The translations under genes and the position numbers were made by a program. Positions 1,791-36,726 of a DNA stretch of 64,000 nucleotides are shown here, one piece after another (positions within the stretch are counted from its first letter, which is position 1; each line of letters begins with the position of its first letter). The notes beneath the pieces were generated by a model, which searched no databases, was not told the origin of the DNA, and worked only from the letters and a program-made list of their open reading frames with translations. The DNA is from Candidatus Nomurabacteria bacterium (GTDB taxonomy: Bacteria; Patescibacteriota; Minisyncoccia; Phycocordibacterales; UBA9973), in NCBI GenBank assembly GCA_023898605.1, contig CP060230.1, positions 3,944 to 67,943 of the forward strand, given 5' to 3'.

Positions 1791-4700
1791 TTACTCTAGG
1801 AGTTTCAAGTCATCTACTATCAAGTTTTTCTCTCCGTTTTTCTCCTTTAGAGTTACATAAGCTGCTATGATCTGTCCCTTTTCTAGATTACTTCCAGCTT
1901 TGTTTAGTGCGTCTGGGAATATAACACCCTCAATTGTTCCAGTCTTGTCTTCCAGTTTTACAAACGCCATTTTTGAGTTTGTTTTTGTGTAGTGCACTTT
2001 TATATCAGAAACCATACATGCTACTAAGTATTTTTGAGCTATCTTGTTACTAGTTATCTCTTCTATTGTTTTTGCATTTTTTTGCTTTATTCTTTCTTCG
2101 TATTTGTCGAGTGGATGACCAGAAACATAAACTCCCAGAAGCTCCTTTTCCCAGATTAGTTTGTCTTTTATGTCAGCTCTATTTCCTGGCGTTAATTTGA
2201 ACTCGTTTATTTCTGATGTTTCTCCAAAAAGGGAAGCTTGGTTTTTGTTACTATTTCCTTCTTTTATAAAAAGAAGCATGTTTCCCATATTTTCTAGAAG
2301 TTCACCTCTATATCCAAACACATCCATTGCTCCGCTTTTGATAAGTGCTTCTAGAGATTTTTTGTTTAGGTTTCTGTGATTTATTCTTGTCAGAAATTCT
2401 CCTATAGAAGAAAACTTACCACCTTTCTTTCTCTCTTCTATTATTGCGTCAGATATATCGGTTCCAAGGTTTTTTATTGTGTATAAGCCAAATCTTATAG
2501 CTCTCGATTCTTTCAAATCTTCTCCGTTTTCAGATACAACAGTAAATCCACCAAAGCTATCATTTATGCTTGGAGGAAGAACGTTTATTTTCATCCTTTT
2601 ACATTCGGCTAGGATTGGCGATATTTTATCTATATCTCCAGATTCTGCTGTCAGTATGGCGGTCATATAGGGAACAGGATAGTTCGCCTTCATATAAGCT
2701 GTTTCGTAAGCAACCTTTCCGTAACTTGCGGCGTGAGCCTTGTTGAATCCATAACCTTGGAATGGCTCAAATAGATCCCAGATTTTTTCTGCTTCTTTTT
2801 TACTCATTCCAGAATATTTTATACAACCTTCTACGAATCTAACATGTTGCTTTGCCATTTCTTCTGGAATTTTTTTACCAACGGCTTTTCGGAACTTGTC
2901 CACTTCACCCCAGTCGTACCCAGAAAGTTCAAGTGCGGTGAAAAGTAGGTCATCTTGATACACAAGAAGTCCCAAAGAAGGTGCGAGGAAGTTTTTCATT
3001 TTTGGGTGATAGAAGGTTATGGGTTTTTTACCATGCTTTCTTTCTATATATTCATCTATGGTTTGCATCGGTCCTGGACGATAAAGCGCAACCATAACGT
3101 TTAGGTCATGTATGCTTGTTGGTTTTAGTTTTATAAGTTTTTGCGTCATGCCTGCGCCGTTCAACTGAAAGACTCCTTCTGTTTCTCCTCTGGCAAGCAT
3201 CTCGAAAGTTTTTTTATCGTCTAATGGTATTTTGTTTATATCTATTTTTTCTTCGTATATTTTTTCTACGAGTTTTATAGAGTCTGCTAGAAACGCTAAG
3301 TTTCTGATACCAAGAAAGTCGAATTTCACCAGACCGACGTCTTCAACAGCGTGCATATTGTATTGGGTTATAAGTTTACCTCCTTTCGGGTCAAGTTGTA
3401 CTGGAGTGTAATCAGTTAGTTCTCCTGGTGAGATAACGACACCTGCTGCGTGAACAGAAATGTGTCTTGCTGAACCCTCTATCTTTTTTGCCATGTCTAA
3501 AATTATCTTTGCGTCTCTGTCGGTCTCGTACATTTCTTTTAGTTCTGGTACGAGTTCCATTGCATGATCTATTGTCATGGGGAATCCTTGGGATCCCATA
3601 GGTATCATCTTGGATATGACGTCTCCAGTGTTGTATGGATATCCTAGCGCCCTAGCTACGTCTCTTACTGCGCCCCTTGCCATCATTGTTCCAAAAGTAC
3701 CTATTTGGGCTACTTTGTTTTCACCGTATTTTTGTTTGGCGTATTCGATCATCTCGTCTCTTCTGTTGTCTGCTATGTCTAGATCTATATCGGGAGCTGA
3801 CGGTCTAAATGGGTTCAAGAATCTTTCAAACGGTAGGTTGTAGAAAAGAGGATCAACATTTGTAATACCGCAAACATAAGAAACTAGCGAACCAGCAGCT
3901 GAGCCTCTTGTGTTTGTATATATACCGTTTTCTTTTGCAAAACGCATAAGGTCGGCAACTATAAGAAAATATGATGAATAACCCTTATCTTTTATGATAC
4001 CGAGTTCGTATTCTAGTCTTTTTACAACCTCATCGTCTTTTTTTAGTCCAACACTTTCAACAAGTGAGTAACATCTATCTTTTAGAACTTCGTCTGGAGA
4101 TTTGCCTTTTTCTGTTTCAAAAATAGGGAAGTATAAGTTTCCTATGTCTATTTCTATATCAACCATGTCTGCTATTTTTAGGGTGTTTTCTACCGCTCCT
4201 TCTATGTCGCCAAAAACTTCTTTTGCCTCACTTGGCCCTATGAGAGAGTAGTCGCCGTCTTTCATGCTCATCTTTGCTTCTCCGACTTCTGAACCAGTAT
4301 TTATCGCAACTAGAGTATCGTGAGCTTCTCCGTCTTCTTTGTGTAGGTAATGTGAGTCCCATGTTCCAACAATCGGTAGATCTACTTCTTTTGCAATAGA
4401 AACTATTTTTTCGACAAGTGGCATATACCAGTCCACTTCTTCGTGTTTCATAACTTCGACAAAAAGATTTTCTCTACCAAAACATTTTTCATAAAATTTG
4501 AGCAATTCTTTTGCGTCGTCTATGCGATCATTTTTGATAAGTTGTACAAACTCACTTCCAGGACAACCAGACAAACAAATTATTCCTTCAGAATATTTTT
4601 CTAGGAGTTCTTTGTCTATTCTTGGTTTGTAATAGAATCCTTCTATGTGTGCGATAGAAGTTAGTTTCATCAGGTTTTTGTAACCTTTCTCGTTTTTGGC

Positions 4701-4973
4701 TATGAGGGTTAGGTGGTAGCTTTTTGTATCGAATTCGGGACTTCTATCATGACGAGTTCTTCTGGCAACATAGGCCTCGAAACCAATGATTGGTTTGATG
4801 CCTTCTTTTTTACATGTTTTATAAAATTCGATAGCGCCGTACATCGCTCCGTGATCTGTTAGAGATAAAGCGGGCATTTTTTGTTCCTTCGCCTTTTTTA
4901 CAAGATCTGGAATCTTCGAAAGACCGTCTAGTAGAGAATAGTGTGAATGCGTATGGAGGTGTACGAATGACAT
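1791..4973 (-). CDS. dnaE: DNA polymerase III alpha subunit
   Basis: The 1122-aa ORF carries a PHP domain (HLHTHSHYSLLDG), polymerase core motifs and a C-terminal OB fold. The start is placed at the internal Met (MSFVHLHTHS) at 4973 rather than the ORF-track start at 5159. Confidence 0.9.
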   Translation of the reverse strand: MSFVHLHTHSHYSLLDGLSKIPDLVKKAKEQKMPALSLTDHGAMYGAIEFYKTCKKEGIKPIIGFEAYVARRTRHDRSPEFDTKSYHLTLIAKNEKGYKNLMKLTSIAHIEGFYYKPRIDKELLEKYSEGIICLSGCPGSEFVQLIKNDRIDDAKELLKFYEKCFGRENLFVEVMKHEEVDWYMPLVEKIVSIAKEVDLPIVGTWDSHYLHKEDGEAHDTLVAINTGSEVGEAKMSMKDGDYSLIGPSEAKEVFGDIEGAVENTLKIADMVDIEIDIGNLYFPIFETEKGKSPDEVLKDRCYSLVESVGLKKDDEVVKRLEYELGIIKDKGYSSYFLIVADLMRFAKENGIYTNTRGSAAGSLVSYVCGITNVDPLFYNLPFERFLNPFRPSAPDIDLDIADNRRDEMIEYAKQKYGENKVAQIGTFGTMMARGAVRDVARALGYPYNTGDVISKMIPMGSQGFPMTIDHAMELVPELKEMYETDRDAKIILDMAKKIEGSARHISVHAAGVVISPGELTDYTPVQLDPKGGKLITQYNMHAVEDVGLVKFDFLGIRNLAFLADSIKLVEKIYEEKIDINKIPLDDKKTFEMLARGETEGVFQLNGAGMTQKLIKLKPTSIHDLNVMVALYRPGPMQTIDEYIERKHGKKPITFYHPKMKNFLAPSLGLLVYQDDLLFTALELSGYDWGEVDKFRKAVGKKIPEEMAKQHVRFVEGCIKYSGMSKKEAEKIWDLFEPFQGYGFNKAHAASYGKVAYETAYMKANYPVPYMTAILTAESGDIDKISPILAECKRMKINVLPPSINDSFGGFTVVSENGEDLKESRAIRFGLYTIKNLGTDISDAIIEERKKGGKFSSIGEFLTRINHRNLNKKSLEALIKSGAMDVFGYRGELLENMGNMLLFIKEGNSNKNQASLFGETSEINEFKLTPGNRADIKDKLIWEKELLGVYVSGHPLDKYEERIKQKNAKTIEEITSNKIAQKYLVACMVSDIKVHYTKTNSKMAFVKLEDKTGTIEGVIFPDALNKAGSNLEKGQIIAAYVTLKEKNGEKNLIVDDLKLLE

Positions 4974-5025
4974 AAATAAATTATACCAATACACAGAATC
5001 ATCTCTAGTCTTACAACACTGGTTT

Positions 5026-5640
5026 ATGTTTGGTATAATTAGTATCGTGATACAAAAGATAGTAGGCATAGACGAAGCGGGCAGGGGTTCACTTGCTGGA
5101 CCCGTGTCGGTTGGCGCTATCTCGTGTGATGAAAGTTTCCTCAAAAAGCTAGAAGCCATAGGCAGGATTCCAGATTCTAAAAAACTATCTCCTCAAAAAA
5201 GAGACGAATGGTTCTCTAGGATAAAAGAGTGGAAAAAGGAAGGTTTACTGGACTATTCTATTTCTCTGGTAAATTCTGAGACCATAGATCGAGATGGTAT
5301 ATCTCACTCCATAAGGACTGGTATAAAAAGAAATCTCAAAAAACTAAGCATAAGACCATCAAATAGCATAATTCTCCTAGACGGCGGGCTTGTAGCGCCA
5401 AAAGTGTACTCTTCTCAAATAGCCATAATAAAGGGTGATGAAAAAATACCTCTTATAGCCCTTGCCTCCATAGTTGCCAAAGTCTTAAGAGACAGACATA
5501 TGGATAGGGTTGGCATACGCATGCCAGAGTACTTTTTCGAGGTTCACAAGGGGTATGGGACCAGACTCCACTATCAATGCCTTAAAAAACACGGTATTTC
5601 TAGCCTCCACAGGAAAACCTTTGTACATATTGACAAATAA
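5026..5640 (+). CDS. rnhB: ribonuclease HII
   Basis: The GIDEAGRGSLAGPV active-site motif near the N-terminus and the ~200 aa length fit RNase HII. The exact start is uncertain and may be GTG-initiated. It is transcribed divergently from dnaE. Confidence 0.8.
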   Translation: MFGIISIVIQKIVGIDEAGRGSLAGPVSVGAISCDESFLKKLEAIGRIPDSKKLSPQKRDEWFSRIKEWKKEGLLDYSISLVNSETIDRDGISHSIRTGIKRNLKKLSIRPSNSIILLDGGLVAPKVYSSQIAIIKGDEKIPLIALASIVAKVLRDRHMDRVGIRMPEYFFEVHKGYGTRLHYQCLKKHGISSLHRKTFVHIDK

Positions 5641-5705
5641 GGCTTTTTTGTGATATAATAAAGAAGAATAGATCGCAATTCCGCGATTTACAAAAAAATA
5701 CCGAC

Positions 5706-6356
5706 ATGAACCATAAAGATATGGATAATGCTCAAATCAGGGCATTTACATCAGTACTCTTTGAAAGAAAGAAAAATGAAAGAACGGGTGAATACGAAGA
5801 TGTTCCTCTCAATGAGTCACAAAAAACCACATTTTTCTCTGGAAGTATTTTCTACAAGTTTGAACGCACAACATTGAAATTTCTGGTCGTTGACTACAGA
5901 ATTTCTAGTGGAATAATCGTGCCTAAGTTTCCTGGAGGGATGTGTTCTTTTGCAAAAGAAGAAACAACCGAAGAGACATGTCTCAGAGAATGTTTCGACG
6001 AAACAGAGCTTACTCCTGATATTTCAAAATCAGAGATTGTTCGTTTTACCATGGCGAGACAAAAAGACTTGGCGCCAAAGCATTACAAGGCTTTTTACCT
6101 TCATCATGAGTATGAGGGCGAGCTCAAGAAGACGTCTTCTGATGGAGGGGAAACGAGTCCACCTTACTGGATGGCCGCCGAAGAAGTGGCGGAGAAAATT
6201 TTCAACCAGCATTACCAGGCGGCAAAAAGAGCTTTCGAGATATTGTGCAGTGTTTACAATAAATCCCTGGATCATAAAACAGCTTGTGGTTTTGCCGGAC
6301 TTGGATTTAGCAGAAGAGACGAAAGATTAAAAGAATATTTCTCCAGGAATATCTAA
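5706..6356 (+). CDS. divergent NUDIX-like hydrolase (hypothetical)
   Basis: The stretch GGMCSFAKEETTEETCLRECFDETEL approximates the Nudix box (Gx5Ex7REUxEExGU) with irregular spacing. A clean rho-independent terminator follows the gene. Confidence 0.4.
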   Translation: MNHKDMDNAQIRAFTSVLFERKKNERTGEYEDVPLNESQKTTFFSGSIFYKFERTTLKFLVVDYRISSGIIVPKFPGGMCSFAKEETTEETCLRECFDETELTPDISKSEIVRFTMARQKDLAPKHYKAFYLHHEYEGELKKTSSDGGETSPPYWMAAEEVAEKIFNQHYQAAKRAFEILCSVYNKSLDHKTACGFAGLGFSRRDERLKEYFSRNI

Positions 6357-6372
6357 TCAGATCTTTAACACC

Positions 6373-6401
6373 ACCGGTGCTTTATGCACCGGTGTTTTTT
6401 A
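6373..6401 (+). terminator. rho-independent terminator
   Basis: A caccggtgc/gcaccggtg hairpin is followed by a T6 run. Confidence 0.55.
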
Positions 6402-6439
6402 TTGCAAAATACAGGTTTTTCTGGTATAGTCTTCTTCGT

Positions 6440-6649
6440 ATGGTTATTCGAATGAGACATACGCGATCTCATACTGCCAATAGAAGAAGTCACCACAAGG
6501 TGAAAAATCAGGCAGTTACAGAGGACAAAGAAACAGGTGTAGTAAGACTACGCCATAGAGCTTCTTTGGAAACTGGAGAGTATAAAGGCAGAAAAGTCCT
6601 GAACACTATGAAGAGCGCGGAAAAGAAATTAAAGAAAAAAACAAAGTAG
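6440..6649 (+). CDS. possible ribosomal protein bL28-like small basic protein
   Basis: MVIRMRHTRSHTANRRSHHKVKN..GVVRLRH loosely resembles the bL28 N-terminus (..GNNRSHALN..VRILVNG) but lacks the Zn-binding cysteines. It is highly basic. The start was chosen at an internal Met of the 6377 ORF. Confidence 0.3.
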   Translation: MVIRMRHTRSHTANRRSHHKVKNQAVTEDKETGVVRLRHRASLETGEYKGRKVLNTMKSAEKKLKKKTK

Positions 6650-6760
6650 TACAAGCCCGGGGAAGTAATATACTTTTTCGGGCTTGTATTGCTTCAGGTC
6701 TCTATCAAGAGCTATACGGATTATAAAATTAACAAAAACATAATTATTGTTCTTTAGCCC

Positions 6761-7657
6761 ATGGCAAACAGACATTTATCTAGATCAATCGTACTTCAAA
6801 CCCTATTTGAGGGTGACTTTAATGGTTTTGACGAAAATGTTGTCAAAGCCTCTCTGGAAAAAAACTTGGAAGAGTTTGCGCCAGGGAGTGATGACAATGA
6901 GTTTGTTCACAATCTTATCGAAACAATCGTTCGAAAAAGAGAAATAATAGACGATGTTATAGAGAAAGCCGCTCCAGAGTGGCCACTCGAAAAAATAAAC
7001 CCTGTAGACAGAAACATATTGAGACTTGGTCTCTCTGAACTTTTGTTTGCAGATAGAAAAGACGTTCCTCCAAAGGTTGCGATAAACGAAGCTATTGAGC
7101 TCGCAAAAAGTTTTGGCGGGGATTCTTCTTCTCGTTTTATAAACGGGGTTCTTGGTGCTGTCTACAAAGAACTGGGTGAACCAGGAAAAGACGATACGGC
7201 AAAAAAGAAAGAGGAAGTAGATCTAACAAAAATTCCTGTAGATCAAAAAGCTGGTAGTGTAGTTTTCTCTCGAGGCAAAGATGGAATCATGTTTGCTATG
7301 GTTCACGACGTTTTTGGCTACTGGACCCTTTCAAAGGGTGGAGTAGAGGAGGGTGAGACACCAGAAGAAGCTGTGATAAGAGAAGTCAAAGAAGAGATCA
7401 ACCTAGATATCAAGGTTCTAAAACAGCTTGGTGAGAACGAATATATCGCTTCTCATCCAGAAAGAGGAAAAGTTAGAAAGCATGTTTTTTACTTCCTTTC
7501 TGAAGCAAAATACGGACCACTAAAACTAGAATCATCTGGTGGATTGGACGATACAAAGTGGTTCAAACCAGAAGAACTCGCAGATCTTCGTGTTTACGAT
7601 GACGTTGCAGGGCTATTGGCTGAATCGATAAATCTTATATCCAAAGACGAGGTTTAA
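6761..7657 (+). CDS. nusB: transcription antitermination factor NusB fused to a C-terminal NUDIX hydrolase domain
   Basis: The N-terminal ~140 aa are typical NusB ([10 protein letters not shown]...[26 protein letters not shown]). The C-terminal ~130 aa carry a canonical Nudix box, [23 protein letters not shown]. Confidence 0.75.
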
Positions 7658-7681: not shown

Positions 7682-8377
7682 ATGATAGATTTTACTCCAT
7701 TTGAGGAAAAGATAGGTATTGTTTTTGTAAACAAGTCTATCTTGACCCAAGCATTTATACATAGATCGTATCTAAACGAAAATCCAAAGCTCGGTCTTGA
7801 ACACAACGAAAGACTCGAGTTTCTTGGTGATGCTGTTTTGGAACTTTCTGTTACTGATTATCTTTACAAGAAATATCCAGATGAAGACGAAGGTATACTG
7901 ACTTCATACAGAGCTGCTCTTGTAAATGCAGTTATTATTTCCGATGTTGCAACAAAGCTCGGGATGAATGACTTTATGCTACTTTCCAAGGGTGAAGCAA
8001 AAGACACTGGTAAAGCCAGGAGCTTCATACTTGCCAATGCCTTTGAAGCTCTTATAGGAGCTATATATATAGATCAAGGTTATGAAAAAGCAGATGAGTT
8101 TATCTCTAAAACTATACTTACTCTTACTGACATAGTTGTAAAAAAGAAACTTTGGAAAGATTCAAAAAGTTTTGTTCAAGAAAAAGCACAAGAGTTCCTT
8201 TCCGTTACGCCTTCTTACCAAGTTTTGTCAGAAAGTGGTCCAGATCACGACAAACTTTTTACAGTAGGAGTTTTCTTTGGTGAAGAGTTGGCAGCCGAAG
8301 GAAAAGGTAAAAGCAAACAAGAAGCTGAACAAAAAGCAGCCGAAAGAGCCCTAGATGATAGAGGCTGGAGAAATTAA
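7682..8377 (+). CDS. rnc: ribonuclease III
   Basis: The RNase III signature ERLEFLGDAVLEL is present, with a C-terminal dsRBD (KSKQEAEQKAAERAL). Confidence 0.9.
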   Translation: MIDFTPFEEKIGIVFVNKSILTQAFIHRSYLNENPKLGLEHNERLEFLGDAVLELSVTDYLYKKYPDEDEGILTSYRAALVNAVIISDVATKLGMNDFMLLSKGEAKDTGKARSFILANAFEALIGAIYIDQGYEKADEFISKTILTLTDIVVKKKLWKDSKSFVQEKAQEFLSVTPSYQVLSESGPDHDKLFTVGVFFGEELAAEGKGKSKQEAEQKAAERALDDRGWRN

Positions 8378-8392
8378 TGTTAAAATATTTTT

Positions 8393-10654
8393 GTGAGAAG
8401 ATTACTTGCACTAAAACTTCAAGGATTTAAATCGTTTGGAAATAAAACGGATATAGAGTTTACAACATCTGTAACTGCCGTTGTTGGTCCAAACGGTTCT
8501 GGTAAATCAAACGTAGTAGAAGCACTACGGTTTGTTTTGGGTGAACAATCCATGAAAAGCATGAGAGGAAAAAGTGGTAGTGACCTTGTTTTCAAAGGAT
8601 CAAAAATTCTCCCAAAGCAAAACAGAGCGAGTGTCTCGATTGTTTTTGACAATAAAGACAGGGTTTTCAAAATAGGTGATGAATCTTCTATAAATGTAGA
8701 TTTTGAAAAAATTGAGATAAGCAGAGAGGTTTTTTCTGATGGTTCTAGTACCTACAAAATAAACGGAAGCGACGTTAGACTAAAAGATATAGTAGAACTT
8801 CTGTCTTCTCTCAATATAGGAGCTTCTGGACACCATATAATTTCTCAAGGAGAAGCGGACAGGATACTCTCGTCCTCTGCAAAAGACAGAAAACAAATGA
8901 TAGAAGATGCTCTGGGACTCAAGATATTTCAGATAAGAATAAAAGAAGGTCAAAGAAAACTAGACAAAACAAGAGAGCACTTGAAAGAAGTTGAAGTTTC
9001 TAGAAGAGAAATTGCTCCACACCTTCGTTTCTTGAAAAAACAAGTAGAAAAAGTAGAAGAAGCAAAAAGTTTAAGAGAAGATCTATCTTCTAAATATTCG
9101 GAATATCTAAAAATAGAAGAATCTTATATCAAGAGTCAAAAGGAGTTCTTTGATACAAAGAGTAAAGAATTGAATGACAAGAAAAAAGAACTAGAAGATT
9201 CTTTGGCAAAAGAAAGCAAAAACATTCCAACCGAAAGCGGAAGTCAACAATTTAAAATAGAAGAAGAAAGAATAGAAAAAGATATTTCTGAAATAAGAAA
9301 AACAAAAGATGAAATAAACAAAAACTTTGCAAAAATAGAAGTGCTTCTCGAAATGGAAGAAGCAAAGAAAAGAGAGCTTTCTGATAGTGCAAAAAGAGAC
9401 GCAGTAACAAATGTTCCATTTGCAAAAATAAAAGACTTCGCGATAAATCTTGAGGAGGAACTAGGAAATATCTCAAAAATTTCTGACATTTCTTCTGTAA
9501 AAGACGCAATAGAAAGATCAATAAGAAATATAAAATCTTTTATTGAAAAATACAGTAGTCCAGTTCTTCTAAATAGCACAATAGAAAACCACGAAGAAAA
9601 AATAAAAGAACTTTTATTAGAAAAATCAAAAATAAGTACAACCTTAAACTCTCTTGAAGAAAGAGAGCTCAAGGCTCTAGAAAAACTAGAGTCTCTCAAG
9701 GCGAGCAAGGACCAAAAGAACCAAGACTCTGTGGATTCTCAAAGAAAGATTTTTGAGATCAAGTCTTCTCTTCAGAATATCCAATCCGAAATAGATATAA
9801 ATGAAGTAAGGGAAGAATCTTTCAAAAAAGAAGAAGTAGATTTCGATAACGAACTAAAGGAGGGAAGTGTTTTGATCGGTGAGTTTATACTTGGGTTTAG
9901 AACTTTTGAATTGAAAGAAGGAATAGAAACAAATAGAGATTCTCAGTACACAAGAAAGAAAGATATAGAAAAGATAAAAATAAAACTAGAATCTTTTGGA
10001 GCGGGTGATTCTGGAGACATCATGAAGGAGTACGAGTCTGTCGTAGAAAGAGATAACTTCTTGCAAAAAGAGATAGATGATATAAATGACTCTATTTCTT
10101 CTCTAGAGAAAATTATAGAAGAATTCCAGGTAGAACTCGACAATAGGTTCAAAGATGGCGTTCAAAAAATAAATAATGAATTCAAAGAACTATTTTCTCT
10201 TATGTTTGGTGGGGGATCAGCAGGACTATCTTTTGTAAAAAATACCAAGAAGATTTCTTCAGAAGATGAAATAGTAGAAGATGAGGATGAACAAAAAGAA
10301 GAGGGCATAGAGATAAGCGTCAATCTTCCACATAAAAAGGTTAGAGAGCTAGAGATGCTATCTGGTGGAGAAAGGTCACTTACATCTATCGCACTTTTGT
10401 TTGCTATATCACAAGTAAACCCACCACCATTTTTGGTTCTAGATGAAACTGACGCTGCGCTTGATGAAGCAAACTCAAAGAGATATGGTTCTATGCTAGA
10501 TAGACTTTCCAAATTCTCTCAACTTATCGTAGTTACTCACAACAGAGAAACAATGTCTCACGCTGGAGTTTTGTACGGAGTTACTGTCGGAAAAGACGGA
10601 GCTTCAAAACTTCTTTCTATCGAGTTCAATGATGCAGAAAGCTACGCTAAATAA
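8393..10654 (+). CDS. smc: SMC-family chromosome segregation ATPase (short, 753 aa)
   Basis: The N-terminal Walker A (GPNGSGKSN), long coiled-coil middle, C-terminal ABC signature (LSGGERSLTSIALLFA) and Walker B (LVLDETDAALDE) fit an SMC. A GTG start was inferred. Confidence 0.7.
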   Translation: MRRLLALKLQGFKSFGNKTDIEFTTSVTAVVGPNGSGKSNVVEALRFVLGEQSMKSMRGKSGSDLVFKGSKILPKQNRASVSIVFDNKDRVFKIGDESSINVDFEKIEISREVFSDGSSTYKINGSDVRLKDIVELLSSLNIGASGHHIISQGEADRILSSSAKDRKQMIEDALGLKIFQIRIKEGQRKLDKTREHLKEVEVSRREIAPHLRFLKKQVEKVEEAKSLREDLSSKYSEYLKIEESYIKSQKEFFDTKSKELNDKKKELEDSLAKESKNIPTESGSQQFKIEEERIEKDISEIRKTKDEINKNFAKIEVLLEMEEAKKRELSDSAKRDAVTNVPFAKIKDFAINLEEELGNISKISDISSVKDAIERSIRNIKSFIEKYSSPVLLNSTIENHEEKIKELLLEKSKISTTLNSLEERELKALEKLESLKASKDQKNQDSVDSQRKIFEIKSSLQNIQSEIDINEVREESFKKEEVDFDNELKEGSVLIGEFILGFRTFELKEGIETNRDSQYTRKKDIEKIKIKLESFGAGDSGDIMKEYESVVERDNFLQKEIDDINDSISSLEKIIEEFQVELDNRFKDGVQKINNEFKELFSLMFGGGSAGLSFVKNTKKISSEDEIVEDEDEQKEEGIEISVNLPHKKVRELEMLSGGERSLTSIALLFAISQVNPPPFLVLDETDAALDEANSKRYGSMLDRLSKFSQLIVVTHNRETMSHAGVLYGVTVGKDGASKLLSIEFNDAESYAK

Positions 10655-10657
10655 AGA

Positions 10658-12502
10658 TTAAAGTATTTTTATATAATCAAGCCAAGGAATAGAATTTTTT
10701 TCCTCTGGGTTTATATATATAGTCCCTGTTCCTTGCGCGGGTATGATTTGGCCAGAAATCCTATCAAGATTTTTGTTTAGTTCTTGTATTTCTGTTTGTG
10801 GTTTTGAGGAAAACTCCGTATATCCCTTGCTGTAAGAAGGATCTTCCCCATATATATAATCTATTTTACCAGTACTTTTTTCTAAATCTATATATTTTTC
10901 ATTTATTTTTATAGATTCAAAATCCAGATCTTTATAGGATAGGTTTACTATATATATAGCAATTTGCCCTTTAGAATTTATATAAGGATACATTCTTATA
11001 TCTTCTAACAAAGAATCACTTTGTGAAAGGTTTCGGATAGTTATTTTTGCTGGCACATAGTTTGATTTGAAAACATCTCTTATTGATCTAAAAGAGAAAT
11101 ATGGTGTCCTTCTAACAAAATTTCCGACATCTTCCGGCTCATTGTTTTTTGTATTGTTCAAAACATGGCGCTTGTTTATCATTGCATTTCCACCACTGGT
11201 TGAGAGCGTGTGGTAGTTTGCTAATTTTATAAAATTTCCATGCTCAGAGTTTTCTTTATTTAGTAGATTTATAAAATCACCAACAAAAGCTGCGTGTAAT
11301 ATCGAGTTGGCTAGAGCGCCACCGGTTTTGCTATTGTCTTGGTTTATGTTCCATTCTGTTACGATCATATCTTTGTTTTCAAAAGTTTTTCTGTAGTACT
11401 CTAATATCACAGGGATAGAGGTATCTAGATTGTTCGATATACTTTCGTTGTCTATGGTTCTCAGCTCTTTAACGGAACATTCAAAAATAGAATTTTTATC
11501 CATTGTTTTGTATATATCATTACAACCAAAAAATCCATGATAAAAGTGCATTACATAAGTATCATAATTTCTTTCCTGCATTTCTTCGTTGAGCGCGATA
11601 TTCCACTGTGAGTTGAAGCTGTAATCAGAGTCGAAACCATCTGCGGTCTCTTCAAATCCTTTTTTGGGAGCAGAAGTCACTGCAAACTTTATCTCCGGAT
11701 AGACGTTTTTTATTTTTGATCTAAATTCTTCCGCACCATCAAGATATCTTGAAACAGCTAACTGTGCTTGTATTTTTGGGTCTCCAGATTGATAGTAATC
11801 ATTTCCCTTTGAATACATTTCATTTCCCATTTCTACATATTCTATATTTACACCAGAGTCTATCAGGAAAGATATTTGCTCCAAGATTTCATCGGGTGTT
11901 CCGTTTTTCATGTTTATTGTGTATGAAATACTAGAATTTGATACTTTTGATATATCCACAATGTCTCTTATGAAGTTTCTCGGCAATTTGTTTTGGTAAC
12001 CCTCGAGGTAAGAAAGTCCTCCATACTTTGATTTCGGAGAAGTTATTTCTTGAACCTCTTTTTCTTCACCTGTTTTTTCTCTGTCTGAGATTATGTAACC
12101 AAAACCTCTAACTTCGTTATTGGGAAGAAGATTAATTTTTTCTTCAGGTGTTAGTAATTTTTCAACCTGATCATCAGATAGCCATACTCTTTGATAGTGT
12201 ACCAAGCCACCAACGTTTCTTATTGAATTAAGCGATAGTTCTGTCAATAAGGTTTTTATATCTTCGTCACCCCAAGGACCTATTTCGTCCCAGTACTTTG
12301 CAAGGTTTGCTCCGTATATGTTTTTTTCTACAGGCATTGACTCAGTGCTTTCTATACTTATATTTAGATTCAATATCTTCGTGTTTTGTACTATTGGTTT
12401 TGTATATTCTGCTTTTTTAATAAAAAATAAGGCTAAAACAAAAAGTACCAGTATAATAATTCCCAAAAAAAATTTTATATATTTATGTCTTTTTGGTTCC
12501 AT
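10658..12502 (-). CDS. membrane-anchored clan GH-A glycoside hydrolase-like protein
   Basis: An N-terminal TM helix is followed by a VEMGNEMY (acid/base NE) motif and an IVTEWN (nucleophile TE) motif typical of the GH5/GH30/GH39 clan. Confidence 0.45.
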   Translation of the reverse strand: MEPKRHKYIKFFLGIIILVLFVLALFFIKKAEYTKPIVQNTKILNLNISIESTESMPVEKNIYGANLAKYWDEIGPWGDEDIKTLLTELSLNSIRNVGGLVHYQRVWLSDDQVEKLLTPEEKINLLPNNEVRGFGYIISDREKTGEEKEVQEITSPKSKYGGLSYLEGYQNKLPRNFIRDIVDISKVSNSSISYTINMKNGTPDEILEQISFLIDSGVNIEYVEMGNEMYSKGNDYYQSGDPKIQAQLAVSRYLDGAEEFRSKIKNVYPEIKFAVTSAPKKGFEETADGFDSDYSFNSQWNIALNEEMQERNYDTYVMHFYHGFFGCNDIYKTMDKNSIFECSVKELRTIDNESISNNLDTSIPVILEYYRKTFENKDMIVTEWNINQDNSKTGGALANSILHAAFVGDFINLLNKENSEHGNFIKLANYHTLSTSGGNAMINKRHVLNNTKNNEPEDVGNFVRRTPYFSFRSIRDVFKSNYVPAKITIRNLSQSDSLLEDIRMYPYINSKGQIAIYIVNLSYKDLDFESIKINEKYIDLEKSTGKIDYIYGEDPSYSKGYTEFSSKPQTEIQELNKNLDRISGQIIPAQGTGTIYINPEEKNSIPWLDYIKIL

Positions 12503-19772: not shown

Positions 19773-20501
19773 ATGGAAAAACCACCAAAAATAATACAAA
19801 AAGCCAAAAAATGGTTAGGATTAGGAGTAATAGCGGGCGCTAGTATGCTACCAAACGAGTCTCAGGCTCAAGTAGAAACTAGTATGATAGAAGACGAGCC
19901 TTCTATAGAATCAGTAAGACAAGAAAATACCATAAGAGAAGAAGCTCCAGAAAAAACTGCTCACATAGAAGAAGCATATGAGGTTTCTTCTGGCGCGAGT
20001 CTAGAATCTCTAGAGTCAGAGAAAAGAGAGCTTCAAGCAGAATACAGAAAGATTGAAGCGGAATATGAACAAATAATAAACAAGTTTCTTGTTACGCTAA
20101 AAGAGTCAGAATTATTCTTGGCAAAAAACGGAGATAAGGAGGCAGCAAAAGCCTTCTCAAGGGCGGATATTTTACCAAAAGAGATAAAAGAAGCTTTTGA
20201 AAGTTTGGTTCAAAAAAGAGTTGGTCAAGAAATCACAGAAGAGGGTGCTGTCGAATATGTTTTTCAATATGTTTTTAATGGAACGGGCAACGATGAAAAA
20301 TCATCTGAGATAGCAAGCACGTTTCAATTTATGTTGGCACAAAAAACACTAGGAACTACTATTGATCAGAACAGTCAGGATATACAAAGACACGTTATTC
20401 TAGGAGAAGGGTACAAGGATCAAGTAAAAACTCTTTTAGAAATGCAAAAATTGCAACGACAAATAAGTTCTTTGGACGAGCAAATAGCTTCTCTTAACTA
20501 G
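19773..20501 (+). CDS. secreted coiled-coil hypothetical protein
   Basis: It has an N-terminal signal peptide with a basic N-region, a hydrophobic core and AQ-rich ends. The rest is E/K/Q-rich and coiled-coil-like. Confidence 0.35.
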   Translation: MEKPPKIIQKAKKWLGLGVIAGASMLPNESQAQVETSMIEDEPSIESVRQENTIREEAPEKTAHIEEAYEVSSGASLESLESEKRELQAEYRKIEAEYEQIINKFLVTLKESELFLAKNGDKEAAKAFSRADILPKEIKEAFESLVQKRVGQEITEEGAVEYVFQYVFNGTGNDEKSSEIASTFQFMLAQKTLGTTIDQNSQDIQRHVILGEGYKDQVKTLLEMQKLQRQISSLDEQIASLN

Positions 20502-33828: not shown

Positions 33829-34470
33829 ATGAAAAACTCTATCAGAAAAGTATCTATAATAGCGCTAGTTATTTCTTTGGCAATCTTTACCCTGATGTTA
33901 CTTATTTCGAAGTTTATCGCAGATAAAAAAATAAATACTCTTATTAATCTACAGAGTGACATATCAGAAATTATTTCTAGCGCCGATATAGATGTACAAA
34001 AATATCAAGAAGAATACTGTGAGTCTCTTTCCAGTGGAGAAAGTGCTATCTCAAGAGAGCTTTCTGACCTTTCAGATAGACTTTCTTATGCTGAAGAGAA
34101 TCTATCGACCAACACACAAGAGGTCAAAGAAATAAGGAGTCTTTATTCTGTATTTCAGATCAAAAATTTCCTTATCCTAGAAGATGTCAAAGACGACTGT
34201 AATCTGGATACTGTTTCCGTGCTGTATTTCTACAAAACAGATAACTGCATCAAGTGTTCTGACCAAGGTTATGTTCTGTCTGCGCTGAGAGATGATTTTC
34301 CAAACGTAAAAGTATTTTCTTTCCCAGAAATAGATAAAACCTTTTCTCAAGAAGTACTGGAGTATAAATATGGCTTTGAGGGTGATGTTTATCCAGCTTT
34401 AGTTATAGATGGTACTTTATACAAAGGATTTCAGTCTCTAGAAAAACTAAAAGAAATAGTTTCAGAATAA
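33829..34470 (+). CDS. membrane-anchored protein with a C-terminal thioredoxin-like CxxC domain (hypothetical)
   Basis: An N-terminal TM is followed by a C-terminal YFYKTDNCIKCSDQ CxxC in a Trx-like context. Confidence 0.35.
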   Translation: MKNSIRKVSIIALVISLAIFTLMLLISKFIADKKINTLINLQSDISEIISSADIDVQKYQEEYCESLSSGESAISRELSDLSDRLSYAEENLSTNTQEVKEIRSLYSVFQIKNFLILEDVKDDCNLDTVSVLYFYKTDNCIKCSDQGYVLSALRDDFPNVKVFSFPEIDKTFSQEVLEYKYGFEGDVYPALVIDGTLYKGFQSLEKLKEIVSE

Positions 34471-35542: not shown

Positions 35543-36121
35543 ATGATGAGATTAACCAGTGACGCCAAAAAAGCTCTGTCCAGGATAGAGAAAGGCAAAG
35601 AATGGAAGCCAGAAAGGTTATCCAAAATAAAAAGTTTCAATGACATTGTCCAGCGAAACTATCTTGAGGTCTTTGGGGCTTCTATTTCTAACAAAAACAT
35701 GCAAAGACTTGTCTGGTCTTCCGAATATATTTCGAACACTAACAATTTGAGCAAGGGCTCAAGGGATGCTGCGGTAAGGTCTTTTGTTGTTGAAATAGAG
35801 TTTTTTGAAGAGTTTGTAAAAGAACTTGAAAAGATGGGTAATACAAAACTCAATCTTATAGTTTTTTTCGCAACTCGAGTTTTGGGCTCAGCTCCTATTG
35901 GAGCTATTTCAAAGCTACACCTGGAGTTTGTGAGGGATATGACGGCATTGGCAACGATATCTCCCATGTCTCAGCTTTTTGAGAACTTAAACAACAAGCT
36001 TCTTACATTGGAAGAAAAATCTTCTAAAAGTACATGGCTCAGACAGCATGCTGCCGAGATTCGTTTCCGTGGATTCAATGTGGTTGCGGGGGCAAATAAA
36101 AAGCCGTTAATTGAAGAATAA
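35543..36121 (+). CDS. hypothetical protein, possible IS-associated cargo
   Basis: The 192-aa ORF has no recognisable motif. It has higher GC (~40%) than the background, its own strong terminator, and sits between the IS30 and tRNA-Thr. Confidence 0.3.
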   Translation: MMRLTSDAKKALSRIEKGKEWKPERLSKIKSFNDIVQRNYLEVFGASISNKNMQRLVWSSEYISNTNNLSKGSRDAAVRSFVVEIEFFEEFVKELEKMGNTKLNLIVFFATRVLGSAPIGAISKLHLEFVRDMTALATISPMSQLFENLNNKLLTLEEKSSKSTWLRQHAAEIRFRGFNVVAGANKKPLIEE

Positions 36122-36294: not shown

Positions 36295-36726
36295 CTATAT
36301 TCTTTCTTGATCTTCAAAATATGCTTCCTCCTCCTCTTTTTCTTCGTTTTTTTCCTTTATATGTCTTTTGAATTTTCGAACCTTTACTCTGTAATCGGTA
36401 AAGTTATGCATGAAGAAATTTGCGATCATTTCCCACAGATCTTTTGGTTTTTCTATATGAGGGAATCTTTTTTGAGCTTCGCTCTTTATTTTGTGAGAAA
36501 GCAAAATAAACATCTTTGCCACAAATAGGGCAAATGACTGGAAGCCTTTTTTGATAGTTTTTACAGAAGATTTTCTAAGAGAAGCTAGAGTTCCGTCTAT
36601 TGCTTCAAAATATATAGGATCTCTGTCGTATATATCTATTTCTTCATTTCTTAGCATTGCTATCTTTTTGCCCAAAAATATAGACAAAACTATAGCAGAA
36701 CCAAAAAACAATATAAAGTAAAACAT
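36295..36726 (-). CDS. small membrane-anchored hypothetical protein
   Basis: An N-terminal TM is followed by a charged C-terminus. The gene lies directly downstream of tsf on the same strand. Confidence 0.3.
   Translation of the reverse strand: MFYFILFFGSAIVLSIFLGKKIAMLRNEEIDIYDRDPIYFEAIDGTLASLRKSSVKTIKKGFQSFALFVAKMFILLSHKIKSEAQKRFPHIEKPKDLWEMIANFFMHNFTDYRVKVRKFKRHIKEKNEEKEEEEAYFEDQERI

What the first reader, a model, noticed from the sequence alone, without database searches (positions are those of the whole stretch)
5706..7657. NusB-NUDIX fusion protein preceded by a second, divergent NUDIX-like paralogue
The nusB gene encodes a full NusB domain fused in-frame to a complete Nudix hydrolase domain with a canonical Nudix box ([23 protein letters not shown]). 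The gene immediately upstream encodes another protein with a degenerate Nudix box. NusB normally stands alone or with ribE. Coupling an antitermination factor to a nucleotide-diphosphate-X hydrolase suggests a link between rRNA transcription antitermination and nucleotide/alarmone or RNA 5'-cap (NAD/Np4A) turnover.
Basis: partly seen in the sequence, partly recalled or inferred. Interest (0 to 1): 0.55.

Follow-up and report, generated by a model that had tools for sequence, protein, structure and literature searches.

The report
NusB antiterminator fused to Nudix domain
In this tiny-genome (CPR/Patescibacteria) bacterium and many relatives, the rRNA transcription factor NusB carries an extra Nudix domain on a flexible tether; the domain resembles enzymes that cleave Ap4A-type nucleotides, and no searchable paper describes the fusion.

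Summary
The main observation holds. ORF 6761-7657 encodes 298 aa: a bona fide NusB (aa 1-138), a disordered K/E-rich linker, and a Nudix domain with a complete catalytic box. It is not a frameshift artefact. The identical protein sits on 12 independently assembled contigs, and about 80 diverged cluster representatives (down to 32% identity) keep the single ORF.

The fusion is the usual form of NusB in a large part of the Paceibacteria, in a conserved rpmF | nusB-Nudix | rnc | smc arrangement. Sister lineages have plain NusB followed by rnc. By sequence and predicted fold, the Nudix domain is closest to diadenosine-polyphosphate hydrolases (Aquifex Ap4A hydrolase, Thermus Ndx1, NUDT2). It does not reach the RppH, NudC or MutT cut-offs.

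Family-wide, the catalytic Glu equivalent to NUDT2 E58 has been replaced at least 11 times, while other non-catalytic residues of the domain stay conserved. The shared role is therefore probably ligand binding; this genome's copy looks catalytically competent.

The "upstream paralogue" (ORF216) is a real but divergent, rare stand-alone Nudix gene. It is separated from nusB by rpmF, has its own promoter and terminator, and is not a close paralogue.

Function is inferred only. I found no paper describing the fusion.

The parts
6761..7174 (+). NusB domain (aa 1-138) of the fusion protein
   Evidence: Pfam PF01029 119 bits and TIGR01951 120.7 bits (cut-off 88.35). PDB hits: T. maritima NusB at E 1e-19, plus Aquifex, E. 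coli and M. tuberculosis NusB, with the [21 protein letters not shown] signature aligned. AF2 predicts seven helices with pLDDT about 80-97.
7175..7249 (+). Flexible linker (aa 139-163, [25 protein letters not shown])
   Evidence: AF2 pLDDT is below 50 for aa 141-152 and pTM is 0.53, so the domain orientation is undefined. Across the family the length is 11-45 aa (median 22) and the composition is K/E-rich. The GEPGKDD motif also ends the stand-alone NusB proteins of sister lineages.
7250..7657 (+). Nudix domain (aa 164-298, plus stop codon), ApnA-hydrolase-like
   Evidence: Pfam PF00293 68.9 bits. PDB sequence hits: Ndx1 Ap6A hydrolase at E 3e-12, Aquifex Ap4A hydrolase, CT771 and NUDT2. Foldseek: 3i7u with target TM-score 0.86-0.89 and rmsd 2.0-2.6 A; 1vc8 with 0.85.
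7337..7405 (+). Nudix box [23 protein letters not shown] (aa 193-215)
   Evidence: Read directly from the sequence. G193, E208 and E212 are invariant, and E199, R207 and E211 nearly so, in 67 homologues of at least 61% identity. E208 aligns with NUDT2 E58.
5706..6356 (+). ORF216: stand-alone, divergent Nudix-fold protein. It is not part of the nusB operon.
   Evidence: Pfam NUDIX 31.2 bits. A single-sequence search of 5.8e9 proteins returned only the protein itself, and a profile search returned 7 proteins. Homologues sit in the same slot in L023 (36% identity) and L009 (27%, canonical box).
5630..5659 (+). Promoter-like site for ORF216 (TTGACA-18 nt with TG-TATAAT, 12 of 12 matches)
   Evidence: Consensus scan. 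This is a pattern match only.
6372..6394 (+). Terminator-like hairpin plus T-run after ORF216
   Evidence: 9 pairs, 7 of them G-C, followed by TTTTTTATTG.
6440..6649 (+). rpmF (ribosomal protein L32), between ORF216 and nusB-Nudix
   Evidence: PF01783 39 bits and TIGR01031 46 bits. Called as a 69-aa gene in public annotation. It precedes nusB-Nudix in nearly all fusion loci.
7682..8377 (+). rnc (RNase III), 25 nt downstream of the fusion gene; probably co-transcribed
   Evidence: Pfam Ribonucleas_3_3 134 bits plus dsrm. nusB is followed by rnc in every locus that extends past nusB, including those with plain NusB.
8393..10654 (+). smc, the next gene in the conserved array
   Evidence: BLAST synteny. 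Pfam SMC_N in public annotation.
5026..5640 (+). rnhB (RNase HII), left border of the variable slot that holds ORF216
   Evidence: PF01351 121 bits; synteny.

Best explanation
SHOWN. The gene encodes a genuine NusB, the boxA-RNA/S10-binding subunit of the rRNA antitermination complex. Its C-terminal tail was already disordered and charged before the fusion, and it has since acquired a Nudix-fold domain of the dinucleoside-polyphosphate (ApnA) hydrolase type. This is the normal NusB of a large Paceibacteria (CPR) subclade. It heads a conserved nusB-Nudix | rnc | smc array. The two domains are joined by a flexible tether of about 25 residues. In this genome every catalytic residue of the Nudix box is present.

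INFERRED (mechanism). NusB with S10 binds boxA in the 5' leader of nascent rRNA and rides with RNA polymerase. The tether lets the Nudix domain reach the polyphosphate-linked 5' end of that same RNA, either a 5'-triphosphate or an Np4N-type cap. In catalytically intact lineages such as this one, the domain hydrolyses that end to a 5'-monophosphate. This would mark the leader, which RNase III (the next gene) cuts off, for 5'-end-dependent decay, and would recycle NusB and S10.

In the many relatives that have lost the NUDT2-E58-equivalent Glu, the domain would only bind the 5' end. The family-wide role would then be recognition of a nucleotide-polyphosphate moiety, with hydrolysis optional.
For: Domain identities and cut-offs.

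Not an artefact: the identical protein is on 12 independently assembled contigs. All of the top 120 homologues carry both Pfam domains. 79 of the best 150 50%-identity representatives carry both domains.

Synteny: 28 fusion loci show rpmF | nusB-Nudix | rnc, and 9 sister-lineage loci show plain NusB followed by rnc. Plain NusB proteins end in the same GEPGKDD motif plus a charged tail.

Nudix type: the best PDB matches by sequence and by fold are Ap4A/Ap6A hydrolases, MutT1/Rv2985 (an ApnA-ase), CT771 and NUDT2.

Precedents: enzymes of this kind can act on RNA 5' ends. NUDT2 trims PPP-RNA to P-RNA (PMC8616924). NpnN caps exist in bacteria and are removed by the Nudix enzyme RppH (PMC7044304, PMC8833179).

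Tether: the linker has pLDDT below 50 and pTM is 0.53, which is typical of an enzyme held near a co-localised macromolecular substrate.

Functional link between Nus factors and RNase III in 30S biogenesis: Bubunenko et al. 2012, as listed in the references of PMC5725501.

Precedent for a NusB-like N-terminal domain delivering a C-terminal enzyme to rRNA: RsmB. The NusB domain here gives sub-threshold RsmB hits.

The box is fully conserved in the window's clade.
Against: There is no biochemical evidence of any kind, and the substrate is inferred from distant relatives (22-33% identity).

The Nudix domain is acidic (pI 4.8; family median 5.3), so it offers no obvious RNA-binding surface.

It fails the RppH and NudC curated thresholds.

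The catalytic Glu is lost in 56 of 83 family members, with at least 11 independent changes. That is hard to reconcile with an essential hydrolytic step, and it fits a sensor or structural role at least as well.

The pre-rRNA leader is removed by RNase III anyway, so the benefit of 5'-end conversion is speculative.

No rRNA operon lies in the window, so boxA and its distance from the 5' end could not be examined.
Confidence: 0.35

Rival explanations
1. Ligand sensor. The Nudix domain binds a free nucleotide signal (Ap4A/ApnA, another NDP-X, or an alarmone) and modulates NusB's entry into the antitermination complex. This would couple rRNA synthesis to stress or nutrient state, as the Nudix effector domain does in NrtR transcription regulators. 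Catalytically intact versions would also turn the signal over.
For: The catalytic Glu (equivalent to NUDT2 E58) is repeatedly lost. Meanwhile K192 (98%), Y244 (95%), Y279 (95%), W188 and W267 (91%) stay conserved in 43 degenerate-box representatives. NrtR is a precedent for a Nudix-like effector domain in a transcription factor (PMC2330246). The domain is acidic, like small-molecule ApnA hydrolases, and the nearest folds are ApnA hydrolases.
Against: AF2 predicts no fixed interface between the domains: the linker is disordered and pTM is 0.53. Allosteric control of NusB therefore has no visible route. The window's whole clade keeps a perfect catalytic box, which a pure sensor would not need. 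I could not show that the conserved residues line a pocket rather than the fold core.
Confidence: 0.25
2. Housekeeping fusion. The Nudix domain is an ordinary free-nucleotide hydrolase (ApnA or NTP house-cleaning) that became fused to NusB in streamlined genomes for co-expression only, with no mechanistic coupling to antitermination.
For: This genome's copy has a complete box and an ApnA-hydrolase-like fold. The flexible linker and undefined domain orientation would allow independent action. Gene fusions of this kind are a general possibility in reduced genomes (general knowledge).
Against: No stand-alone Nudix gene lies next to nusB in the sister lineages that have plain NusB, so this is not a simple fusion of neighbouring genes. 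The domain has been retained, with conserved non-catalytic residues, in many lineages where the catalytic Glu is gone. A pure enzyme would be expected to decay or be deleted in such small genomes. The fusion is stable down to 32% identity.
Confidence: 0.15
3. Structural subunit. The Nudix fold serves as a protein-protein module of the CPR antitermination complex. This would be analogous to SuhB, an enzyme-fold protein that is an integral part of the E. coli rrn antitermination complex. Catalysis would be incidental.
For: Catalytic residues are dispensable across the family, yet the domain is kept. SuhB is part of the rrnTAC and contacts NusA (PMC6614797). One family member adds a further weak Rho_N-like tail.
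Against: The perfect box in the window's clade (67 of 67) and the near-universal Lys192 point to a nucleotide or phosphate ligand. No partner interface could be tested. Whether these genomes lack SuhB was not examined.
Confidence: 0.15
4. Artefact. An assembly or annotation frameshift joined two separate genes.
For: None found.
Against: The frame is continuous. The identical 298-aa product is on 12 contigs from independent assemblies. Hundreds of homologues at 32-74% identity keep one ORF of about 300 aa.
Confidence: 0.01

Closest known systems
NusB (E. coli, T. maritima, Aquifex; TIGR01951 / PF01029)
   Same: The N-terminal 138 aa score above the equivalog cut-off. The fold is the same helical one, and the C-terminal signature [20 protein letters not shown] is conserved.
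   Different: It carries a 160-aa C-terminal extension (linker plus Nudix domain). Canonical NusB is a single-domain protein of about 130-150 aa. The gene context is rpmF | nusB | rnc rather than ribH-nusB.
Dinucleoside-polyphosphate (ApnA) Nudix hydrolases: Aquifex aq_158 Ap4A hydrolase (3i7u), T. thermophilus Ndx1 Ap6A hydrolase (1vc8), C. trachomatis CT771, human NUDT2
   Same: These are the best sequence and fold matches (E 3e-12; target TM-score 0.85-0.89). The W-T-x-x-K-G motif lies before the box, the Nudix box is complete, and E208 aligns with NUDT2 E58.
   Different: Identity is only 22-33%. The domain is fused to NusB, whereas these enzymes stand alone (MutT1 is fused to a histidine-phosphatase domain). 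Most diverged members of the fusion family lack the catalytic Glu. Activity is untested.
RppH (bacterial RNA 5' pyrophosphohydrolase / Np4 decapping enzyme)
   Same: Nudix fold. The proposed chemistry is the same: removing pyrophosphate or a cap from RNA 5' ends to license decay (PMC7044304, PMC8833179).
   Different: It is not a family member: 35 bits against a cut-off of 118. The domain here is acidic, and any RNA targeting would have to come from the NusB domain rather than from the Nudix domain itself.
RsmB/Sun 16S rRNA m5C methyltransferase
   Same: Same architectural logic and order: an N-terminal NusB-like RNA-binding domain followed by a C-terminal catalytic domain that acts on rRNA. 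The NusB domain here gives partial RsmB hits.
   Different: The catalytic domain is a Nudix fold, not a methyltransferase. The N-terminal domain is an orthologous NusB, not merely NusB-like. RsmB scores are far below the cut-offs (56 against 319 bits).
NrtR (Nudix-related transcriptional regulators)
   Same: A Nudix-like domain, often catalytically impaired, is attached to a transcription-regulating module and used to read a nucleotide ligand (PMC2330246). An NrtR Nudix domain appears among the fold hits (poor rmsd).
   Different: The partner is a winged-helix DNA-binding domain rather than NusB. The ligand is ADP-ribose. The Nudix domain is N-terminal. There is no specific sequence relationship.

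Membership tests
NusB (TIGR01951 / PF01029) | Score above the curated equivalog and Pfam cut-offs | tested here: met
   TIGR01951 120.7 bits against 88.35; PF01029 119.2 against 23.1.
NusB (TIGR01951 / PF01029) | All-helical fold of about 130 aa, homologous to solved NusB structures, with the conserved C-terminal helix signature | tested here: met
   AF2 predicts 7 helices with high pLDDT. PDB: 1tzt at E 1e-19, plus 3r2c, 3d3b and 1eyv, with [16 protein letters not shown] aligned.
NusB (TIGR01951 / PF01029) | Binds S10 (NusE) and boxA RNA and supports rrn antitermination | not testable with these tools
   No rRNA operon is in the window. The boxA-like GTTCTTTA at 6749 is not above chance.
Nudix hydrolase superfamily (PF00293) | Nudix box GX5EX7REUXEEXGU | tested here: met
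   G193-x5-E199-x7-R207-E208-V-K-E211-E212-I-N-L; only the penultimate G is replaced, by N. Pfam 68.9 bits against 21.1.
Nudix hydrolase superfamily (PF00293) | Alpha/beta/alpha Nudix fold | tested here: met
   The AF2 model matches 3i7u with target TM-score 0.86-0.89 and rmsd 2.0-2.6 A.
Nudix hydrolase superfamily (PF00293) | Mg2+-dependent pyrophosphohydrolase activity | not testable with these tools
   This needs an enzyme assay. 56 of 83 relatives lack the E208 equivalent.
ApnA (Ap4A/Ap6A) hydrolase subgroup (Ndx1, aq_158, NUDT2-like) | Closest relatives by sequence and fold; W-T-x-x-K-G motif preceding the box | tested here: inconclusive
   These are the best hits in both searches, and the motif WTLSKG aligns with WTPPKG. 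However, identity is 22-33% and no curated threshold model was available.
ApnA (Ap4A/Ap6A) hydrolase subgroup (Ndx1, aq_158, NUDT2-like) | Hydrolysis of ApnA | not testable with these tools
   This needs an enzyme assay.
RppH (PRK00714 models) | Score above the equivalog cut-off | tested here: not met
   The best RppH model gives 35 bits against a cut-off of 118.
NudC (NAD-cap decapping; NF001299) | Score above the cut-off; downstream SQPWPFPxS motif | tested here: not met
   32.2 bits against 158. No SQPWPFP motif is present in the translated sequence.
MutT (TIGR00586 / PRK10776) | Score above the cut-off | tested here: not met
   27.3 bits against 97.9, and 30.4 against 148.
ORF216 as a Nudix-fold protein | Pfam NUDIX above the cut-off; intact Nudix box | tested here: inconclusive
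   Pfam 31.2 bits against 21.1 is met. The box is degenerate: a 2-aa insertion, RECFDE, and no terminal G. The homologue in L009 has a canonical box.
ORF216 as a paralogue of the fused Nudix domain | Specific similarity beyond the shared superfamily motif | tested here: not met
   27% identity over 78 aa with pairwise E 0.009, centred on the box. The L009 homologue against the fused domain gives E 3e-4 over 56 aa.

The most novel reading that the evidence does not exclude
A Nus factor with a built-in nucleotide-polyphosphate reader and hydrolase. In a major CPR class, the rRNA antitermination complex would carry its own Nudix module that recognises the 5'-triphosphate or Np4N cap of the nascent boxA-containing transcript (or a free ApnA alarmone), and in some lineages cleaves it. 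This would directly couple antitermination and rRNA maturation to RNA 5'-end chemistry or alarmone levels. No such coupling is known for any Nus factor.
Probability: 0.3. Interest if true: 0.75.

Novelty: new variant of a known kind. Interest (0 to 1): 0.5.

Why it matters
NusB is one of the most conserved transcription factors in bacteria and is treated as a single-domain RNA-binding adaptor. Here a whole class of ultra-small bacteria has permanently attached a Nudix module of the Ap4A-hydrolase type to it.

If the module acts on the 5' end of the bound transcript, it would be the first case of 5'-end processing or decapping built into an antitermination complex. If it reads free ApnA, it would give the Ap4A "alarmone" a direct target in rRNA synthesis, which bears on a long-standing question about what Ap4A does.

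The natural series of catalytically intact and catalytically dead variants, sometimes differing within one genus-level group, offers a ready-made experiment. In practice, public annotation calls these proteins simply "NusB", so the extra domain is invisible to users.

Tried and rejected
1. Frameshift or assembly artefact: rejected.

2. ORF216 as an adjacent paralogue and part of the same system: rejected. rpmF lies between the genes, ORF216 has its own promoter and terminator, similarity is weak, and it occupies a variable slot in only 3 loci.

3. RppH, NudC or MutT membership: rejected on curated cut-offs.

4. boxA-like GTTCTTTA just before the nusB start codon as an autoregulatory site, by analogy with suhB (PMC5725501): the motif is present in 6 of 31 related upstream regions against 0.9 expected (p 2e-4 uncorrected). 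That is not significant after testing all 6-mers. In the window the core GYTCTTTA occurs 8 times against 10.5 expected. I leave it as an unproven lead.

5. Looking for the rRNA leader and boxA: no rRNA is in the window.

6. Foldseek against afdb50, to see the architecture in UniProt and outside the CPR: the library was unavailable.

7. Literature: searches for NusB+Nudix, Nudix+Patescibacteria, NusB+Candidate Phyla Radiation and NusB+MutT+fusion found nothing on this architecture.

8. 'Nudix-only' representatives (P0198, P0202, P0214 and others) as evidence of split genes: most begin inside the linker or the NusB C-terminus and look like fragments or truncated gene calls. Their context could not be fetched.
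Full report
**1. What is in the sequence**

On the + strand the region reads as follows:

| Gene | Coordinates |
|---|---|
| rnhB (RNase HII) | 5026-5640 |
| ORF216 | 5706-6356 |
| rpmF (L32) | 6440-6649 |
| 298-aa fusion ORF | 6761-7657 |
| rnc (RNase III) | 7682-8377 |
| smc | 8393-10654 |

dnaE lies on the opposite strand to the left.

The 298-aa ORF is uninterrupted. Residues 7-136 match Pfam NusB (119 bits) and the NCBIfam equivalog TIGR01951 (120.7 bits, cut-off 88.35). Residues 182-277 match Pfam NUDIX (68.9 bits, cut-off 21.1).

The gene immediately upstream is rpmF, not the second Nudix gene.

**2. The fusion is not an artefact**

- The identical protein is annotated at NCBI as 'transcription antitermination factor NusB [Candidatus Nomurabacteria bacterium]'. 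It is encoded on 12 contigs from independent assemblies.
- All 120 best homologues (61-74% identity, 295-318 aa) carry both Pfam domains.
- An exhaustive search of 1.8 billion 50%-identity representatives gave 140 hits at E<=1e-30.
- Of the best 150, 79 carry both domains, and about 60 of those are full-length fusions reaching down to 32% identity.

**3. Distribution and origin**

In one genome per GTDB species, 28 full-length fusion loci were recovered. They are labelled Nomura-, Wolfe-, Niyogi- and Giovannonibacteria, Elulimicrobiales, UBA5272, Paceibacterota, and several TPA bins labelled 'Saccharibacteria'. All belong to the Patescibacteria group.

Synteny is strongly conserved: dnaE(-) | rnhB | variable slot | rpmF | nusB-Nudix | rnc | smc.

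Nine loci from sister lineages (Yanofskybacteria, other Parcubacteria, Microgenomates, Chisholmbacteria) have a plain NusB of 124-176 aa directly followed by rnc, with no Nudix gene nearby. The plain Parcubacteria proteins end with the same GEPGKDD motif, followed by a short charged tail.

I conclude that the nusB-rnc linkage is older than the fusion. The Nudix domain was appended to a disordered tail that already existed, in a Paceibacteria subclade. It did not arise by fusing neighbouring genes.

**4. Anatomy**

AlphaFold2 with 67 homologues gives mean pLDDT 86. It predicts a seven-helix NusB domain, a Nudix alpha/beta/alpha domain, and a linker (aa 141-152) with pLDDT below 50. The pTM is 0.53, so the relative orientation of the two domains is undefined.

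Across the family the linker is 11-45 residues long (median 22) and rich in K, E, D and P.

The NusB part aligns with solved NusB proteins. T. maritima gives E 1e-19, followed by Aquifex, E. coli and M. tuberculosis, and the alignment includes the [22 protein letters not shown] segment.

**5. What kind of Nudix domain it is**

By sequence, the best solved relatives are:
- T. thermophilus Ndx1, an Ap6A hydrolase (E 3e-12)
- Aquifex Ap4A hydrolase
- Deinococcus DR1025
- C. trachomatis CT771
- C. elegans and human Ap4A hydrolases

By fold, the same set leads: 3i7u with target TM-score 0.86-0.89 and rmsd 2.0-2.6 A, then 1vc8 at 0.85, then MutT1/Rv2985 (a Nudix diadenosine polyphosphatase), CT771 and NUDT2.

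The WTLSKG motif before the box aligns with WTPPKG of the animal Ap4A hydrolases. E208 aligns with human NUDT2 E58, and E212 with Ndx1 E50. These are the positions mutated in PDB entries 4ijx (E58A) and 1vc9 (E50Q).

RppH, NudC and MutT models all score far below their curated cut-offs. The domain is therefore ApnA-hydrolase-like. It is not a member of the RppH or NudC families.

**6. An unexpected family-wide pattern**

In the window's own clade (67 sequences of at least 61% identity), G193, E208 and E212 are invariant. E199, R207 and E211 are nearly so.

The picture changes among the 62 diverged 50%-identity representatives. Only 11 keep the complete box, and E208 is replaced by I, V, K or A in most.

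On a neighbour-joining tree of 83 fusions, E208 is present in 27. Its state changes at least 11 times, including between close relatives:
- L006 (RE) versus L007 (RK)
- Giovannonibacteria L010/L011 (RE) versus L012/L017 (RK)

In the 43 degenerate-box representatives, non-catalytic residues remain highly conserved:

| Residue | Conservation |
|---|---|
| K192 | 98% |
| Y244 | 95% |
| Y279 | 95% |
| W188 | 91% |
| W267 | 91% |
| Y228 | 86% |
| D183 | 86% |

K192 aligns with the Lys of the Ap4A-hydrolase PKG motif, and Y279 with C. elegans Tyr121. From my own knowledge of that enzyme, these are a phosphate contact and an adenine-stacking residue. That assignment was not tested here.

My reading is that the domain is under selection everywhere, but hydrolysis is dispensable in many lineages. 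The common denominator is probably binding of a nucleotide-polyphosphate ligand. One caveat applies: I could not separate pocket residues from fold-core residues.

**7. ORF216**

It is a real gene. The identical 216-aa protein is annotated at NCBI as 'NUDIX domain-containing protein', and it matches Pfam NUDIX at 31 bits.

Its box is degenerate: PGGMCSFAKEETTEETCLRECFDETEL. There is a two-residue insertion between G and E, REUxEE has become RECFDE, and the final G is lost.

It has a perfect sigma-70-type consensus promoter at 5630-5659 and a terminator hairpin at 6372-6394. It is therefore its own transcription unit.

A single-sequence search of 5.8 billion proteins returned only the protein itself. 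A three-sequence profile returned 7 proteins.

Homologues occupy the same rnhB | X | rpmF slot in two other species: L023 (36% identity) and L009 (27% identity, with a canonical box). Other species hold unrelated ORFs in that slot.

Similarity to the fused Nudix domain is marginal and centred on the box (E 0.009). ORF216 is a rare, fast-evolving stand-alone Nudix protein in a variable slot. It is neither a conserved partner nor a close paralogue of the fusion.

**8. How it most likely works**

Shown:
- a genuine NusB
- an ApnA-hydrolase-type Nudix domain
- a flexible tether
- a conserved operon-like array with RNase III
- a catalytically complete box in this genome

Inferred, as my preferred model (about 0.35): NusB with S10 binds boxA in the 5' leader of nascent rRNA. 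The tether lets the Nudix domain engage the polyphosphate-linked 5' end of that RNA, either PPP or an Np4N cap. In box-intact lineages it converts that end to a monophosphate. This would license decay of the leader released by RNase III and recycle NusB and S10. In box-degenerate lineages the domain would only bind.

Precedents for this model:
- NUDT2 trims PPP-RNA (PMC8616924).
- NpnN caps exist in bacteria and are removed by a Nudix enzyme (PMC7044304, PMC8833179).
- RsmB shows the same logic of a NusB-like domain followed by an rRNA enzyme.
- Nus factors and RNase III cooperate in 30S biogenesis (reference 3 of PMC5725501).

Against it:
- the Nudix domain is acidic, pI 4.8
- catalysis has been lost repeatedly
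- there are no experimental data

Rivals:
- An NrtR-like ligand sensor (0.25; PMC2330246).
- A housekeeping ApnA or NTP hydrolase fused only for co-expression (0.15). This is disfavoured because the domain is retained without its catalytic Glu.
- A SuhB-like structural subunit of the antitermination complex (0.15; PMC6614797).

**9. Novelty and score**

The architecture is abundant in public databases but is annotated only as 'NusB'. Four full-text searches found no paper describing it. It is a new variant of a known kind: a Nus factor with an added Nudix module. It is not a new kind of system.

I set interest at 0.5. It gives transcription and RNA-decay specialists a concrete, testable lead. 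Two features add value: the ApnA-type identity of the domain, and the natural intact/dead catalytic series. Function is entirely inferred.

Noticed in passing
window 6749-6759 (GTTCTTTAGCC, ending 2 nt before the nusB-Nudix ATG); also L004, L001, L016, L008 and L015 upstream regions: A boxA-like motif (gamma-proteobacterial consensus GYTCTTTAANA, PMC5725501) lies directly in front of the nusB-Nudix start codon, and similar motifs occur in several relatives. This would suggest suhB-style autoregulation. Enrichment is weak, though: 6 of 31 loci against 0.9 expected, which is not significant after multiple testing. The window holds 8 copies of the core against 10.5 expected.
   Followed up: partly
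slot between rnhB and rpmF: window 5641-6439; L009 4146-4628; L023 3626-4255; other loci: This intergenic slot varies between species. It holds a small, fast-evolving stand-alone Nudix family in three species and unrelated ORFs of 130-450 aa in others.
   Followed up: partly
window 6650-6700 (ACAAGCCCG...19-nt loop...CGGGCTTGT after rpmF): A 9-bp perfect inverted repeat follows the rpmF stop codon. It has a long loop and no T-run, so the terminator scan did not call it. Its role (terminator, processing site or leader structure of the nusB operon) is unknown.
   Followed up: no
P0124 (358 aa, relative), residues 322-356: This NusB-Nudix relative has a degenerate box (KKIKSE) and carries an extra C-terminal tail with a weak Rho_N-like match (PF07498, E 0.0015, below the cut-off). 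Other representatives (P0156, P0165, P0203, P0265) have NusB plus unrecognised C-terminal extensions of 60-200 aa. The NusB C-terminus therefore seems to be a hot spot for added modules in the CPR.
   Followed up: partly
window 1791-5159 (-): The longest dnaE ORF is 1122 aa, but public annotation calls 1060 aa. The extra 62 N-terminal codons overlap the rnhB start on the other strand and are probably not translated.
   Followed up: partly
window 10658-12502 (-), 19773-20501 (+), 33829-34470 (+), 35543-36121 (+), 36295-36726 (-): Several sizeable ORFs, including one of 614 aa next to smc, have no Pfam match at E<=1e-5. The rest of the scanned window is ordinary housekeeping: RNase R, an L,D-transpeptidase/D-Ala-D-Ala carboxypeptidase fusion, trmD, truB, rpoB, rpoC, dnaG, rpoD, tsf and rpsB.
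   Followed up: no
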